Of a stretch of DNA of 64,000 nucleotides, positions 38,672 through 51,299 are shown piece by piece; the first letter of the stretch is position 1; each line of letters opens with the position of its first letter. The stretch is from the NCBI RefSeq assembly GCF_039654945.1, contig NW_027361687.1, forward strand, positions 34,906,001-34,970,000, given 5' to 3'. The notes under the pieces were generated by a model. That model was not told the DNA's origin, made no database searches, and worked only from the letters and a program-made list of their open reading frames with translations. The position numbers were made by a program, and so were the translations under genes. This stretch comes from Dendrobates tinctorius. Lineage: Eukaryota.

Positions 38672-38729
38672 ATGGAATCGCTGACCTCCTCCCGCTGCTT
38701 GCTGGGCCTTGTAGTGCTCTTCGCTCTGA
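38672..38729 (+). CDS. MPZ: Myelin protein zero, exon 1 (signal peptide)
   Basis: MESLTSSRCLLGLVVLFAL|gtaagt; phase 1 matches exon 2. Confidence 0.85.
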
Positions 38730-39388: not shown

Positions 39389-39555
39389 CGCTGCCCCCGG
39401 CCCTGGCCATAGAGGTGTACACGGCCCGCGAGATCCACGGCACGGTCGGCTCCCAGGTCCACCTGTCCTGCACCTTCTGGTCCAGTGAATGGATCTCAGA
39501 CGACATCTCCGTCACCTGGCACTACCAGCCTGACAACAGCAGGAGCACCTACTCG
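39389..39555 (+). CDS. MPZ: MPZ exon 2 (Ig-V, first half)
   Basis: LPPALAIEVYTAREIHGTVGSQVHLSCTFWSSEWISDDISVTWHYQP; 167 nt. Confidence 0.96.
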
Positions 39556-39640: not shown

Positions 39641-39854
39641 ATATTTCACTACTCCAAAGGACAGGCGCACATAGACGACACGGGCATCTTTAAGGATCGC
39701 ATTGAGTGGGTGGGCTACCCCCGGAGCAAGGACGGCTCCATCGTGCTCCACAACCTGGAATATGGCGACAACGGGACCTTCACCTGCGACGTGAAGAACC
39801 CACCGGACGTGGTGGGGAAGTCGTCCTATGTGCACCTGCTGGTCTACGACAAAG
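39641..39854 (+). CDS. MPZ: MPZ exon 3 (Ig-V, second half)
   Basis: IFHYSKGQ...DGSIVLHNLEYGDNGTFTCDVKNPPDVVGKSS; 214 nt. Confidence 0.97.
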
Positions 39855-39930: not shown

Positions 39931-40066
39931 GACCCGTCCGCGCTGGCATGGTGCTTGGCATCATTATTGGAGCCGCTCTGGGGCTGGTGATCATTGTGGC
40001 GCTCCTGGCATACCTCATACGTTACTGCTGGCTGCGGAGGCAGATCCGGGTGCAGCGCCAGCTCAG
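39931..40066 (+). CDS. MPZ: MPZ exon 4 (transmembrane)
   Basis: PVRAGMVLGIIIGAALGLVIIVALLAYLIRYCWLRRQ; 136 nt. Confidence 0.96.
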
Positions 40067-40146: not shown

Positions 40147-40204
40147 TGCCCTGGAAAGAGGAAAACTTCACAAGTTAACCAGAGGCTCAAAAGGCAGCAG
40201 ACAG
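40147..40204 (+). CDS. MPZ: MPZ exon 5
   Basis: ALERGKLHKLTRGSKGSRQ; 58 nt. Confidence 0.93.
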
Positions 40205-41296: not shown

Positions 41297-44200
41297 CTAG
41301 CTGAAGAACCCATAACTACGGTTAGTTATAACAAATTATAATGATTATATCTATATATAAAGCTGTGTAGAGCCCCACCCACTCCACATAGCCACATTCA
41401 CTATAATATCCCACATCATCCCGTCAGCCAGAGCCACCGGACTACTACCCCTAGTATCCTACATCATCCCGTCAGCCAGAGCCACCGGACAACTACCACT
41501 TATATCCCACATCATTCCGTCAGCCTGAGCCACCAGACTACTACTCCTAATATCCCACATAATCCCATCAGCCAGAGCCACCGGATTACTACCCCTAATA
41601 TCCCACATCATCCCGTCAGCCAGAGCTACCGGACTACTACCACTAATATCCCACATCATCCCATCAGCCAGAGCCACCGGACTACTACTCCTAATATCCC
41701 ACATAATCCCATCAGCCAGAGCCACCGGATTACTACTCCTAATATCCCACATCATCCCGTCAGCCAGAGCCACCGGACTACTACCACTTATATCCCACAT
41801 CATTCCGTCAGCCTGAGCCACCAGACTACTACTCCTAATATCCCACATAATCCCATCAGCCAGAGCCACCGGATTACTACCCCTAATATCCTACATCATC
41901 CCGTCAGCCAGAGCTACCGGACTACTACCACTAATATCCCACATCATCCCATCAGCCAGAGCCACCGGACTACTACTCCTAATATCCCACATAATCCCAT
42001 CAGCCAGAGCCACCGGATTACTACTCCTAATATCCCACATCATCCCGTCAGCCAGAGCCACCGGACTACTACCACTAATATCCCACATCATCCCATCAGC
42101 CAGAGCCACCGGACTACTACTCCTAATATCCCACATAATCCCATCAGCCAGAGCCACCGGATTACTACTCCTAATATCCCACATCATCCCGTCAGCCAGA
42201 GCCACCGGACTACTACCACTAATATCCCACATCATCCCATCAGCCAGAGCCACCGGACTACTACTCCTAATATCCCACATAATCCCATCAGCCAGAGCCA
42301 CCGGATTACTACTCCTAATATCCCACATCATCCCATCAGCCAGAGCCACCGGATTACTACCCCTAATAGCCCACATCACCCCGTCAGCCAGAGCCACCGG
42401 ACAACTACCACTAATATCCCACATCATCCCGTCAGCCAGAGCCACCGGACTACTACCCCTAATATCCCACATCATCCCGGGAGCCAGAGCCACCGGACTA
42501 CTACCACTAATATCCCACATCATCCCATCAGCCAGAGCCACCGGACTACTACTCCTAATATCCCACATCATCCCATCAGCCAGAGCCACCGGACTACTAC
42601 CCCTAATATCCCACATCATCCCATCAGCCAGAGCCACCGGACTACTACTCCTAATATCCCACATCATCCCGTCAGCCAGAGCCACCGGACTAGTACCCCT
42701 AATATCCCACATCATCCCATCAGCCAGAGCCACCGGACTACTACCCCTAATATCCCACATCATCCCATCAGCCAGAGCAACCGGATTACTACTCCTAATA
42801 TCCCACATCATCCCATCAGCCAGAGCCACCGGACTACTACGCCTAATATCCCACATCATCCCATCAGCCAGAGCCACCGGACTACTACCTCTAATATCCC
42901 ACATCACCCCGTCAGCCAGAGCCACCGGACAACTACCACTAATATCCCACATCATCCCGTCAGCCAGAGCTACCGGACTACTACCACTAATATCCCACAT
43001 CATCCCATCACAGCCACCGGACTACTACTCCTAATATCCCACATAATCCCATCAGCCAGAGCCACCGGACTACTACCCCTAATATCCCACATCATCCCAT
43101 CAGCCAGAGCCACTGGACTACTACCCCTAATATCCCACATCATCCCGTCAGCCAGAGCCACCGGAATACTACCCCTAATATCCCACATCATCCTGTCAGC
43201 CAGAGCCACCGGACTACTACTCCTAATATCCCACATCATCCCAACAGCCAGAGCCACCGGACTACTACCCCTAATATCCCACATCATCCAGTCAGCCAGA
43301 GCCACCGGACTACTACTCCTAATATCCCACATCATTCCATCAGCCAGAGCCACCGGACTACTACTCCTAATATCCCACATCATCCCAACAGCCAGAGCCA
43401 CCGGACTACTACCCCTAATATCCCACATAATCCCGTCAGCCAGAACCACTGCACTACTACTCCTAATATCCCATCAGCCAGAGCCACCGGACTACTACCC
43501 CTAATATCCCACATCATCCCGTCAGCCAGAGCCACCGGACTACTACCCCTAATATCCCACATCATCCCGTCAGCCAGAGCTACCGGACTACTACCCCTAA
43601 TATCCCACATCATCCCGTCAGCCAGAGCTACCGGACTACTACCCCTAATATACCACATCATCCCGTCAGCCAGAGCCACCGGACTACTACCCCTAATATC
43701 CCACATCATCCCGTCAGCCAGAGCCACCGGACTACTACTCCTAATATCCCACATCATCCCGTCAGCCAGAGCCACCGGACAACTACCACTAATATCCCAC
43801 ATCATCCTGTCAGCCAGAGCCACCGGACTACTACCACTAATATCCCACATCATCCCATCAGCCAGAGCCACCGGACTACTTCCCCTAATATCCCACATCA
43901 TCCCATCAGCCAGAGCCACCGGATTACTACCCCTAATATCCCACATCATCCCGTCAGCCAGAGCCAACGGATTACTACTCCTAATATCCCACATCATCCC
44001 ATCAGCCAGAGCCACCGGACTACTACCTCTAATATACCACATCACCCCGTCAGCCAGAGCCACCGGATTACTACCCCTAATATCCCACATCATCCCGTCA
44101 GCCAGAGCCACCGGACAACTACCCCTAATATCCCACATCATCCCGTCAGCCAGAGCCACCGGACTACTACCCCTAATATCCCACATCATCCTGTCAGCCA

Positions 44201-46866
44201 GAGCCACCGGACTACTACCCCTAATATCCCACATCATCCCAACAGCCAGAGCCACCGGACTACTACCCCTAATATCCCACATCATCCCGTCAGCCAGAGC
44301 CACCGGACTACTACTCCTAATATCCCACATCATTCCATCAGCCAGAGCCACTGGACTACTACTCCTAATATCCCACATCATCCCAACAGCCAGAGCCACC
44401 GGACTACTACCCCTAATATCCCACATCATCCCAACAGCCAGAGCCACTGGACTACTACCCCTAATATCCCACATCATCCTGTCAGCCAGAGCCACCGGAC
44501 TACTACTCCTAATATCCCACATCATCCCAACAGCCAGAGCCACCGGACTACTACCCCTAATATCCCACATCATCCCGTCAGCCAGAGCCACCGGACTACT
44601 ACTCCTAATATCCCACATCATTCCATCAGCCAGAGCCACCGGACTACTACTCCTAATATCCCACATCATCCCAACAGCCAGAGCCACCGGACTACTACCC
44701 CTAATATCCCACATAATCCCGTCAGCCAGAACCACTGCACTACTACTCCTAATATCCCATCAGCCAGAGCCTCCGGACTACTACCCCTAATATCCCACAT
44801 CATCCCGTCAGCCAGAGCCACCGGACTACTACCCCTAATATCCCACATCATCCCGTCAGCCAGAGCTACCGGACTACTACCCCTAATATCCCACATCATC
44901 CCGTCAGCCAGAGCTACCGGACTGCTACCCCTAATATCCCACATCATCCCGTCAGCCAGAGCCACCGGACTACTACCCCTAATATCCCACATCATCCCGT
45001 CAGCCAGAGCCACCGGACTACTACTCCTAATATCCCACATCATCCCGTCAGCCAGAGCCACCGGACTACTTCCCCTAATATCCCACATCATCCCATCAGC
45101 CAGAGCCACCGGATTACTACTCCTAATATCCCACATCATCCCGTCAGCCAGAGCCACCGGACTACTACCCCTAATATCCCACATCATCCCATCAGCCAGA
45201 GCCACCGGACTACTACCTCTAATATACCACATCACCCCGTCAGCCAGAGCCACCGGACAACTACCCCTAATATCCCACATCATCCCATCAGCCAGAGCCA
45301 CCGGATTACTACCCCTAATATCCCACATCATCCCATCAGCCAGAGCCACCGGATTACTACCTCTAATATACCACATCATCCCGTCAGCCAGAGCCACCGG
45401 ACTACTACCCCTAATATCCCACATCATCCCGTCAGCCAGAGCCACCGGACTACTACCCCTAATATCCCACATCATCCCGTCAGCCAGAGCTACCGGACTA
45501 CTACCCCTAATATCCCACATTATCCCGTCAGCCAGAGCTACCGGACTACTACCCCTAATATCCCACATCATCCCGTCAGCCAACGGATTACTACTCCTAA
45601 TATCCCACATCATCCCATCAGCCAGAGCCACCGGACTACTACCTCTAATATACCACATCACCCCGTCAGCCAGAGCCACCGGACTACTACCCCTAATATC
45701 CCACATCATCCCGTCAGCCAGAGCCAACGGATTACTACTCCTAATATCCCACATCATCCCATCAGCCAGAGCCACCGGACTACTACCTCTAATATACCAC
45801 ATCACCCCGTCAGCCAGAGCCACCGGACTACTACCTCTAATATCCCACATCACCCCGTCAGCCAGAGCCACCGGACAACTACCACTAATATCCCACATCA
45901 TCCTGTCAGCCAGAGCCACCGGACTACTACCACTAATATCCCACATCATCCCGTCAGCCAGAGCCACCGGACAACTACCCCTAATATCCCACATCATCCC
46001 ATCAGCCAGAGCCACCGGATTACTACCTCTAATATCCCACATCATCCCGTCAGCCAGAGCCACCGGACAACTACCCCTAATATCCCACATCATCCCGTCA
46101 GAGCCAGTAAAAGTAGAATAGTGAAATTGCACAGAAACATGGTTCACTAAGATCCCAGGTTTTCTACTGATCAGGCTGATATTCTCACTTATCTGCCACC
46201 ATAAATATCACAGTCATGCTTTTCGCCAATGGACAGGCAGAAACCTTATACATTAGTACAGTAGAGAAACCTGCACACACATTTTCATGCACCGTCAACT
46301 TGTCATTTGTCCGGCTGAGTTGCTCATGGATGTACAGCATCTGTATGCAGTATAGTATCATATTTAATGGGTTGTTATGGGAAAAGCATTACGTGTTATA
46401 TGGGTATATTCAGGTGAATTATGGGGAAAGTAGCACTTTAAAAAAAGTCACAGCATCAGAGCACAGTAACACATCAATAATGCATAAAAGTGTCTGTGAG
46501 AAAATATTAAATCCACATGACATTTAATATGTGCACTTTCCTACATTCATGTTTGTCACTTAATGATACCACATGGGAGGGGGGATTCATTTATGTCATG
46601 TACTCACTGCTCCTTTCTGGGGGACAGACGATGGCTGGATCTTATGTTCCTGGGGATGCTAGATTTCTCCCACCATGTCAGTGTCTACTGAGGTGTTGTC
46701 AAGTGGGAAAACTTGCGCATAGCAACCAATCACAGCTCAGCTACTTTTAACCAGCTCTGGTGAAATGAGAGATGCTTAGTCATTGGCTGCAAGGAAAACT
46801 GTTGGTCATAGCAACCAATCACAGCTTAGCTACACACACACACACATTGATTTTTATATGTAGAGA
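41297..46866 (-). mobile_element. Non-autonomous Helitron carrying a long minisatellite, inserted in an L2 3' tail
   Basis: On minus, A|TC at 46866 and CTAG|T at 41297, with no TSD. Removing it restores ATTATTATTATTTA-TATAGCACCATT, an L2-like tail. Confidence 0.72.
41405..46105. repeat. 48-bp minisatellite
   Basis: Unit CTAATATCCCACATCATCCCGTCAGCCAGAGCCACCGGACTACTACCC, close to 100 copies. Confidence 0.97.
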
Positions 46867-48944: not shown

Positions 48945-49270
48945 TTAAGTCAGACAGAAGAGAGGTGCGAAGGTGTTAGAAGGTAGGCCACAGAGGAGGA
49001 TGTTGCAGTAGTCGAGGCGGGAGATGATGAGGGCATGCACAAGCATTTTCGTAGATTGAGGGTTGAGGAAAGGACGGATTCTGGAAATATTTTTGAGCTG
49101 GAGGCAGCAGGAGGTGGAAAGAGCTTGGATGTGCGGTTTGAAGGACAGAGTCAAGGGTTACTCTGAGGCAGCGGACTTCCGGTATGGGGGAAAGCGTATG
49201 TGAGTGCAGCTTTGGATGTGACTGGAGTACAAGGAACTATTTAACCCTCTTTTTTTCATTGCTTTTACAG

Positions 49271-49360
49271 ACGCCGCTCCTCTCCATGCTCGACCAAACC
49301 AGGAGCTTCAAATCCAGCGACAAGAAACCTAAAGGGCTGGGCGACTCCCGCAAGAAATAG
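49271..49360 (+). CDS. MPZ: MPZ exon 6 (last), to the canonical TAG
   Basis: TPLLSMLDQTRSFKSSDKKPKGLGDSRKK*. The six exons total 723 nt (240 aa). Confidence 0.93.
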   Translation, partial: TPLLSMLDQTRSFKSSDKKPKGLGDSRKK

Positions 49361-49564
49361 CAATTAGCAGGCAGGGAAGGTACACATAAGGCAGATACGG
49401 AGTCCCCTCGCAGCTCCAAGGTGATCTATACCATCGAAATGGAGCTGCGGGGGGATGAGGACGGGGACCAGCCCCGCCGAGTCGCGGTAAAGTCTCCCAG
49501 TAAGAACAGCCTCAAAAACGCCCTCAAGAATTTAATTAAAAGTGACTCAGAGAAACACCCTTAA
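49361..49564 (+). CDS. MPZ: L-MPZ stop-codon readthrough extension (67 codons)
   Basis: TAG CAA TTA, then QLAGREGTHKADTESPRSSKVIYTIEMELRGDEDGDQPRRVAVKSPSKNSLKNALKNLIKSDSEKHP*. Shares IEMELR, AVKSPS and SLKNALKN with recalled mammalian L-MPZ. Confidence 0.88.
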   Translation, partial: QLAGREGTHKADTESPRSSKVIYTIEMELRGDEDGDQPRRVAVKSPSKNSLKNALKNLIKSDSEKHP

Positions 49565-50404
49565 TCTAGCGGAGGCCGGCGGAGACCCGAACGAGAAGGC
49601 GTATCCCGGGGTCATACCCAAAAATCCTTCCCCGGGTCCTCGCCGGCCTCCTGCCACGGCTAATGCCTTATAATAACCTGTATGTGTGATCCGTATCGTA
49701 CCTTTCCCTGCGGGAAACTAGCAAGAACTTTCTGAGAAACCAAGAATCAAAGTAGGACTCCTCCGAACCAGCGGGGCCACCGTCTATCACCTAAGGGGTG
49801 GCTGCAATGCGATGCAATGCAATCTCTACCCTACCAGGTCACCCTGAAGGATGGGCCAGCCATAAAAATTGTGGTAACTACCCAGATCTGGGATTTTTGG
49901 CTCCTAATGGGAGGTGCCTGAGATCTCGGCCAACCAGGTAACACTTTATGATGATGCCTGATCTGACCGCAATCTCCAGCCACCTGCTGTAGCCTTGTGG
50001 CTCATGTACAAGTATCGCCCTCTCTGCCTCTCTCCAGGGCAATATTTCTACAGCTTTAGCCCCTTCGTGGCCAATCAGGGGTTGTTAAAGCTTTAATGGC
50101 TTCTGTTAACCTCTTAAGTGCTGCACAGGCCAACTGCAGCATCCACAGGGGTCAATAGAAGGTGTTATTAACCGGTACCGTAAATCCCAGAAAAAAGGCC
50201 CTAATGTGTTTAAAGTGATCATAGGGTAATAACACCGCATGCACTAAATTACTTACTGTAAGTCTCCAAATGTAAGAGCAGCATCACTTCTCAACCCCCA
50301 GAAAGCGCCAGTACTTACCATACAGTATAAATTAGAGTAGAAAACCCAGCATGAGACCCTAACTCCAAGACTTTCTTTTAGGCCAGGACACCTAGATCTA
50401 ACTT

Positions 50405-50795
50405 TATATCCTGTAAGTCCTAGAATATAAGGCTTTCCCTGATACCGTAAATAACAGAATATATTGCTAGAATCACTAGAATCACTCTGGCAGTCTCTGA
50501 TTGGGTGGTCAAATACAGCCCCACCCTCTTACTGTAAATACTAGAATATAGGGGCAATATGGTTCATCACACTCCAGTGGATATCTGTTACCATAAGTAC
50601 TAGAATAAGGGACAACTATACTTTATTACGCCCGTGTAATACTTGTACCGTAAATATTAGAATATAGGGCCACTATGCTTTATTATACTCCATTGTAATA
50701 GTTATACCGTAAATATCAGACTATAAGCCCGGCATGTTTTTCTTTACACCCCAGTGTAATACCTCTACCATAATTATCAGACTATCTGCCCAGCG
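50405..50795. repeat. Degenerate ~60-bp tandem repeat in the MPZ 3' UTR
   Basis: C(C/T)GTAAATAxTAGAATATAGGGC-like motif at about 50411, 50532, 50591, 50648, 50707 and 50768. Confidence 0.55.
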
Positions 50796-51293
50796 TTGCT
50801 CATTAGCCCCTCTATCCCGATTCCTCCGGCCTTCTTGAGTTCCCTGCAGGTCTCCGCGTAGCGTCACTATCAGGATATTCTCGTCTCGTCTTCCATCGTT
50901 CATGGTGCTGTGCTGGAAACTGATCCAGAATGACGTTTCCTGTTTCCATATTTTGGTGAAATCATCGTTTCTATGTTCGGCCCCTCATGACTGAGAATTA
51001 ACCGGATTTACATTGTTATTTTTTACGACTTTTTTTCTGAATTTTCTGCATTGCTGATGTGTAATGATAGAAGCCTATTCACAGCGGACAGACCAGACTT
51101 GATGATGACCGAGGTCACTGGGGTCTCCGGCAGCAGCAAAGCATCCTGGGACTTCCAATATGGCTGCACTGCAAACACTGTGGTGTCGCCAACAATGCTC
51201 CCCAATCCAGACCATCCATAGCCATGTCCGATGTATGTGTATATGTTTGTAAATATGTGACCCCCTGTACAAACCATCGACATCAGGACCATT

Positions 51294-51299
51294 AATAAA
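51294..51299 (+). terminator. MPZ: MPZ polyadenylation signal
   Basis: AATAAA about 1.9 kb after the stop, just before the convergent PCP4L1 signal. Confidence 0.6.

What the first reader, a model, noticed from the sequence alone, without database searches (positions are those of the whole stretch)
49358..49564. MPZ stop codon in a perfect TMV-type readthrough context with a conserved L-MPZ extension
Seen: TAG CAA TTA followed by 67 sense codons and then TAA. Known: UAG-CAR-YYA is the tobacco mosaic virus leaky-stop signal, and L-MPZ is an established readthrough isoform of P0. The extension retains IEMELR, AVKSPS and SLKNALKN. The ORF track misses it. Inference: an exact CAA-TTA match (I recall CGG-TTA in human) predicts efficient readthrough and a 308-aa isoform in this species.
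Basis: partly seen in the sequence, partly recalled or inferred. Interest (0 to 1): 0.7.

Follow-up and report, generated by a model that had tools for sequence, protein, structure and literature searches.

The report
Frog myelin P0 stop-codon readthrough
This is the last exon of a poison frog's gene for the nerve-myelin protein P0: its stop codon sits in the same leaky sequence as tobacco mosaic virus's and is followed by a conserved 67-codon tail, so the frog likely makes the longer L-MPZ form already known from frogs to humans, which is real but ordinary.

Summary
Real, correctly identified, and known. The TAG at 49358 ends a six-exon MPZ gene (240-aa P0, identical to a RefSeq frog P0). CAA TTA follows; 67 sense codons (counting those two) run to TAA, so readthrough would give 308 aa. 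Spliced contigs of three organisms keep stop, context and frame; 8 of 10 changes in the extension are synonymous. The extension is 64/67 and 61/67 identical in two other frog genera and 56-57% identical to mammalian L-MPZ tails. L-MPZ is published as conserved and present from frog to human. The CAA start is not special to this species: other frog models also begin Gln-Leu. Mammalian models imply TAG CGG YTA. An exact TMV match does not predict unusually high readthrough: that context gave about 1.9% in human cells, while mouse nerve L-MPZ is 5-10% of P0. Readthrough in this species was not measured. Two side observations: a 17-bp hairpin 45 nt from the stop, with no compensatory support, and loss of the YAML targeting motif in 13 of 13 neobatrachian P0 proteins checked. 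The scan's notes held no earlier MPZ finding.

The parts
38672..38729 (+). MPZ coding exon 1 (ATG, signal peptide)
   Evidence: gene model; 240/240 identical to P0160
39389..39555 (+). MPZ exon 2 (Ig V domain, first half)
   Evidence: Pfam V-set on the identical protein P0160
39641..39854 (+). MPZ exon 3 (Ig V domain, second half)
39931..40066 (+). MPZ exon 4 (transmembrane helix)
40147..40204 (+). MPZ exon 5 (cytoplasmic tail)
   Evidence: its letters are the loose end of contigs that enter exon 6
49271..49357 (+). Exon 6, last 29 codons of P0; begins TPLLSML where most tetrapods have a YAML motif; ends DSRKK
   Evidence: Pfam Myelin-PO_C above cut-off
49358..49360 (+). TAG, canonical P0 stop and predicted readthrough codon; preceded by AAG AAA
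   Evidence: unchanged in contigs of 4 of 4 runs laid
49361..49366 (+). CAA TTA, exact TMV type I (CAR YYA) 3' context
   Evidence: unchanged
49361..49561 (+). 67-codon L-MPZ extension (7.4 kDa; 13 basic, 11 acidic residues)
49402..49456 (+). Predicted 17-bp RNA hairpin (arms 49402-49418 and 49440-49456) inside the extension; role unknown
49508..49540 (+). SLKNALKNLIK: most amphipathic 11-mer of the extension, starting with an invariant S-x-K
   Evidence: hydrophobic moment 0.68; S50 L51 K52 invariant in 6 of 6 rows
49562..49564 (+). TAA, second stop
   Evidence: unchanged
49565..51299 (+). Unspliced 3' UTR up to the first AATAAA (51294)
   Evidence: single contigs run 49267 to 51263/51274 in two runs of organism A

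Best explanation
The stretch is the 3' end of the frog MPZ (myelin P0) coding sequence, where a TAG in the context AAA-TAG-CAA-TTA is followed in frame by a conserved 67-codon tail, and a few percent of ribosomes likely read through the TAG to make a 308-aa L-MPZ beside the 240-aa P0. Shown here: gene structure, splicing of exon 5 to exon 6, both stops in one unspliced last exon, homology of the tail to mammalian L-MPZ, and coding-type selection on the tail. Inferred from published systems: the two adenines before the stop and CAR YYA after it weaken termination, a near-cognate tRNA (most likely tRNA-Tyr) decodes UAG, no downstream structure is needed, and the tail adds a phosphorylatable, partly amphipathic segment on the cytoplasmic side of compact myelin. 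I expect a level of a few percent to about 15%, not clearly above mammals.
For: Model gives 240 + 1 + 67 aa, 240/240 identical to RefSeq-labelled P0 P0160. Contigs of organisms A, B and C enter at the exon 6 acceptor with exon 5 letters and show no change between 49331 and 49385 and no indel before the TAA. 8 of 10 distinct changes in the tail are synonymous. Tail 64/67 identical in an Anomaloglossus model and 61/67 in a Gastrophryne model, both of which run P0 into the tail and are flagged LOW QUALITY by NCBI; related peptides are also found under alligator, skink and cobra names. Single locus in G000. [quoted passage not shown]
Against: No ribosome footprint, peptide or reporter datum for this species. 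Only 10 substitutions from two close relatives support selection, and the runs are guessed to be RNA. UAG in the TMV context gave only about 1.9% in HEK293T, so the hexamer alone is a modest signal in vertebrate cells. The role of upstream adenines is disputed (PMC9841425, passages). The primary papers (Yamaguchi 2012; Yamaguchi and Baba 2018) were not held, so the frog protein evidence is taken second-hand.
Confidence: 0.9

Rival explanations
1. The tail is translated, but through splicing that skips the stop: the TAG itself, or a later AG, acts as a 3' splice acceptor for exon 5.
For: Exon 5 ends in phase 0, and AG acceptors at 49361, 49391, 49403, 49421 and 49445 would be in frame with the tail. 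Some mammalian gene models use acceptors inside this region (P0055, P0070).
Against: Every contig that reached the exon entered at the normal acceptor (6 runs over); no joint into the tail was listed. The TAG has only 6 pyrimidines in the 13 bases before it. Contigs drop rare forms, so this is not excluded.
Confidence: 0.04
2. The region is an untranslated 3' UTR element in this lineage, kept for RNA structure or as a recent relic; the open frame is incidental.
For: A strong hairpin lies in it; an open 67-codon frame alone has p 0.03-0.07; substitution density (10 in 201 nt) is not significantly lower than in the next 156 nt of UTR (13 and 2 indels; Fisher p 0.28).
Against: Changes fall on third positions (8 of 10 synonymous), three of them inside the hairpin arm, two breaking pairs; the peptide, not the hairpin, is what is shared with mammals.
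Confidence: 0.04
3. Readthrough happens but depends on the downstream hairpin and is much higher in these frogs than in mammals.
For: 17-bp stem, z -4.2 against 200 shuffles; best of 98 windows along exon 6 and the UTR; 0 of 3000 synonymous recodings fold as well; all 17 pairs remain possible for the Anomaloglossus and Gastrophryne peptides but at most 11-13 for mammalian ones.
Against: The stem starts at +45, while stimulatory structures listed for viruses start at +2 to +13. Organism C breaks 2 pairs, improves 1, and shows no compensatory double change. 4 of 98 windows have z below -3, so strong hairpins occur elsewhere in this mRNA. The region was picked after seeing the fold.
Confidence: 0.12

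Closest known systems
L-MPZ, the readthrough isoform of myelin protein zero (mammals, Xenopus)
   Same: Orthologous gene, TAG at the same place after Lys-Lys, tail with invariant LAGR, IEMELR, AVKSPS, SLKNALK, both stops in the last exon. RefSeq names the Xenopus laevis 245-aa proteins 'isoform MPZ', which suggests a curated second isoform.
   Different: Tail is 67 aa after the stop against 63 in the mammalian models; +5/+6 are AA instead of GG (window CAA TTA; mammals CGG YTA); P0 ends DSRKK, two residues shorter than DSRKDRK/DKK; YAML motif absent; a 17-bp hairpin is possible that mammalian peptides cannot fully encode.
TMV replicase type I readthrough signal (UAG CAR YYA)
   Same: Nine of nine bases UAG CAA UUA match; AA before the stop in both (TMV CAA, here AAA).
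   Different: Cellular vertebrate gene; codons beyond -1 and +9 differ; efficiency is host-dependent (10-35% listed for TMV; about 1.9% in HEK293T).
Structure-stimulated readthrough (MoMLV pseudoknot, alphavirus and coltivirus stem-loops)
   Same: A stable predicted stem lies 3' of the stop.
   Different: Starts at +45 instead of about +9 to +13; no covariation seen; type I context does not need one.

Membership tests
MPZ / myelin P0 | Signal peptide, one Ig V domain, one TM helix, Myelin-PO_C tail, six coding exons | tested here: met
   Six-exon model; identical protein P0160 hits Pfam V-set and Myelin-PO_C above cut-off
MPZ / myelin P0 | YAML trafficking motif in the cytoplasmic tail (described for mammals) | tested here: not met
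   Window reads PLLSML; motif also absent in 13 of 13 neobatrachian proteins checked, so it is a lineage change and not a reason to doubt orthology
L-MPZ readthrough isoform | In-frame TAG at the P0 end followed by an open tail homologous to the 63-aa mammalian domain | tested here: met
L-MPZ readthrough isoform | Stop, context and frame conserved, with coding-type substitution pattern | tested here: met
   small sample (10 changes, two relatives)
L-MPZ readthrough isoform | Tail and P0 on the same mRNA with no splice between them | tested here: met
   Single contigs span exon 5 to the 3' UTR without a joint at the stop; rare forms would be missed
L-MPZ readthrough isoform | Longer protein detected in peripheral nerve | not testable with these tools
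   Needs western blot, MS or ribosome profiling; reported for frog in the literature, second-hand
TMV type I readthrough signal | UAG CAR YYA | tested here: met
TMV type I readthrough signal | Readthrough depends on the hexamer and not on a structure | not testable with these tools
   Needs reporter mutagenesis
Structure-stimulated readthrough (types II/III) | Stable structure beginning about 8-12 nt after the stop, with covariation | tested here: not met
   Stem begins at +45; no compensatory change in two relatives

The most novel reading that the evidence does not exclude
Neobatrachian frogs have rewired the P0 tail: they lost the YAML targeting motif that mammalian P0 needs, and pair an exact TMV-type stop context with a frog-specific hairpin to make a much larger share of L-MPZ than mammals tolerate, making them a natural test of how the L-MPZ/P0 ratio is set and of how P0 reaches myelin without YAML.
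Probability: 0.12. Interest if true: 0.55.

Novelty: new member of a known kind. Interest (0 to 1): 0.22.

Why it matters
As it stands it is an orthologue of a published readthrough case and an annotation gap: the matching RefSeq protein is the 240-aa form. It gives a natural two-base variant (CAA against CGG) of a context that matters medically, since raising L-MPZ against P0 causes neuropathy in mice. The YAML loss is the less expected point: the motif directs P0 trafficking in mammalian assays, yet the neobatrachian proteins checked lack it.

Tried and rejected
Species-specific gain of the TMV context: rejected, Gln-Leu start in Anomaloglossus and Gastrophryne models; DNA of those species was not seen, so Leu could be other than YYA-compatible there. 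Stop lost in other frogs (P0001, P0156 run straight through): rejected as the likely reading, since the models lack a residue at the stop position, carry NCBI's LOW QUALITY flag, and Anomaloglossus also has a 240-aa RefSeq model. Assembly error at the TAG: rejected, same letters in all contigs laid. Paralogue or pseudogene copy: one match in G000. DNA of further vertebrates: metagenome scan found 0 relatives among 333 pattern matches. No RNA holder was listed as on record; the contigs are spliced, but give no level or strand. Pfam has no family for the tail. Profile search of 50% representatives added little (9 hits). The scan's earlier notes held no MPZ finding; the one returned concerned a shark receptor and was not used. 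No structure or complex prediction was run: a 67-aa, largely polar tail would not decide anything. Yamaguchi 2012, Yamaguchi and Baba 2018 and Cassan and Rousset 2001 were not held; supplements of the papers read were not opened and could show frog stop contexts.

Full report
Observation. window:49358-49564 on the + strand is TAG, 67 sense codons starting CAA TTA, then TAA. The three named peptide motifs are present. Alone, the open frame (p 0.03-0.07) and the motif (p about 0.0025 behind a given stop; 5 occurrences of TAG-CAR-YYA in the window) are modest evidence.

Gene. Coding exons at 38672-38729, 39389-39555, 39641-39854, 39931-40066, 40147-40204 and 49271 onward, all introns GT-AG, give a 240-aa protein ending at this TAG, and 308 aa with readthrough. 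The 240 aa are identical to P0160, a RefSeq myelin protein P0 labelled Dendrobates tinctorius, and 231-235 of 240 identical to four Ranitomeya and Anomaloglossus models. P0160 hits Pfam V-set and Myelin-PO_C above cut-off. G000 has one match for exon 6 plus tail.

Transcript. Contigs from 6 public runs (of 24 listed) were laid on parts of the region. In runs of organisms A, B and C the contig enters at the exon 6 acceptor carrying exon 5 letters, and in two runs of A one contig continues to about 51270, just before the first AATAAA at 51294. So both stops lie in one unspliced last exon. The runs are only guessed to be RNA, and contigs give no level.

Selection. In one search (4 runs, all differences shown) there is no change from 49331 to 49385 and no indel before the TAA; two indels appear just after it in organism C. 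The 10 distinct changes in the tail are 8 synonymous and 2 missense, p 0.0002 to 0.003 over transition biases of 1 to 20. Against this: only two close relatives, and the overall change density is not significantly below the adjacent UTR (p 0.28).

Wider conservation. NCBI models for Anomaloglossus (307 aa) and Gastrophryne run P0 straight into the tail and are flagged LOW QUALITY; the tails are 64/67 and 61/67 identical and start Gln-Leu. So CAR at +4 to +6 is shared by hyloid and microhylid frogs (family placement recalled) and is not peculiar to this species. Four mammalian tails align at 56-57% identity and start Arg-Leu.

Mechanism. Shown: anatomy, splicing, homology, substitution pattern. 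Inferred: leaky termination. UAG CAA UUA is the TMV type I signal (PMC13517186, passages), active in plants, yeast and mammals without a downstream structure (same paper, section 2.5). C at +4 and AA before the stop favour readthrough (PMC7026636, passages), though the upstream effect is disputed (PMC9841425, passages). tRNA-Tyr raises UAG-TMV readthrough from about 1.9% to 3.6% in HEK293T (PMC8136774, passages). Mouse nerve L-MPZ is 5-10% of P0 (PMC7070019, passages) and a review lists 14% for MPZ. The mammalian CGG context therefore already does as well as or better than the TMV hexamer in a reporter, and the exact match does not by itself predict more readthrough. The tail is 7.4 kDa, nearly charge-neutral beside a strongly basic P0 tail (19 basic, 4 acidic), and has an invariant S-L-K at the start of an amphipathic stretch; a PKC site in the tail is reported for mouse, and that it is this serine is my inference.

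Hairpin. Folding from the stop gives a 17-bp stem at 49402-49418 / 49440-49456, z -4.2. It is the best of 98 windows along exon 6 and the UTR (4 of 98 fall below z -3), and 0 of 3000 synonymous recodings fold as well under either codon weighting. All 17 pairs stay possible for the two other frog peptides, at most 11-13 for eight mammalian ones, against a mode of 10 for 2393 random heptapeptides. Against a role: it starts at +45, far beyond the +2 to +13 starts listed for viral stimulators; organism C breaks two pairs and improves one, with no compensatory double change, though it still folds (z -5.1); the region was chosen after seeing the fold. One search (MPZ, stop codon readthrough, stem-loop; 13 papers, listing seen) and passages of four of them (searches was from another list, 54) showed no MPZ hairpin, which is not a thorough negative.

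YAML loss. Exon 6 begins TPLLSML. Of 21 named proteins I picked by hand, 13 of 13 from neobatrachian genera lack YAML and 6 of 6 from other frog lineages, plus baboon and stork, keep it (clade labels recalled). Among the 116 hits, 77 have the MLD[H/Q] anchor: 68 with YAML, 9 without, all 9 frog-type. YAML directs P0 targeting in MDCK assays (bioRxiv 10.1101/352112, passages; PMC7465998, passages). One search (YAML, myelin protein zero; 5 papers, 3 listed) showed no title on frogs.

What is known. [quoted passage not shown] RefSeq names Xenopus laevis P0 'isoform MPZ'. I recall that Yamaguchi and Baba 2018 also likened the P0 context to the viral and yeast UAG consensus; the paper was not held, so this is recall only. 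PMC4615788, PMC5100048, PMC6298568 and PMC6941052 were seen as passages and added only background.

Verdict. A true L-MPZ orthologue, a new member of a known kind. Confidence 0.9 that readthrough yields a 308-aa isoform at a few percent to about 15%. Interest 0.22. The boldest reading not excluded, a frog-specific rewiring with higher readthrough and no YAML, has probability about 0.12.

Noticed in passing
window:49271-49291: YAML trafficking motif of P0 is replaced by PLLSML (Tyr lost, one residue shorter) here and in 13 of 13 neobatrachian proteins checked, kept in 6 of 6 other frogs.
   Followed up: partly
window:49402-49456: 17-bp predicted hairpin inside the readthrough tail, third codon positions paired with third positions; no compensatory support in two relatives.
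   Followed up: partly
window:49343-49357: P0 ends DSRKK, two residues shorter than DSRKDRK of most frogs; shared by the dendrobatoid models, and a similar short end DSRRK occurs in Eleutherodactylus and Pseudophryne.
   Followed up: partly
window:40205-49270: Intron 5 is 9066 nt while introns 2-4 are 76-85 nt; it holds a 48-nt tandem array of about 98 copies (41404-46101) that produces long spurious ORFs, and a high-copy repeat near 49000-49235.
   Followed up: no
window:50091-50170 and 49571-49650: Two further strong local hairpins in the 3' UTR (z -4.7 and -3.8).
   Followed up: no
window:10053-25182: About 15 kb of C-rich, strand-skewed satellite with a 31-36 nt unit.
   Followed up: no
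window:27511-28755: Frame-broken ORFs that look by eye like a non-LTR retroelement reverse transcriptase (YADD motif); label recalled, not searched.
   Followed up: no
P0070 cluster: Several mammalian gene models splice exon 5 into the tail region in another frame; no such joint was seen in the frog contigs.
   Followed up: no
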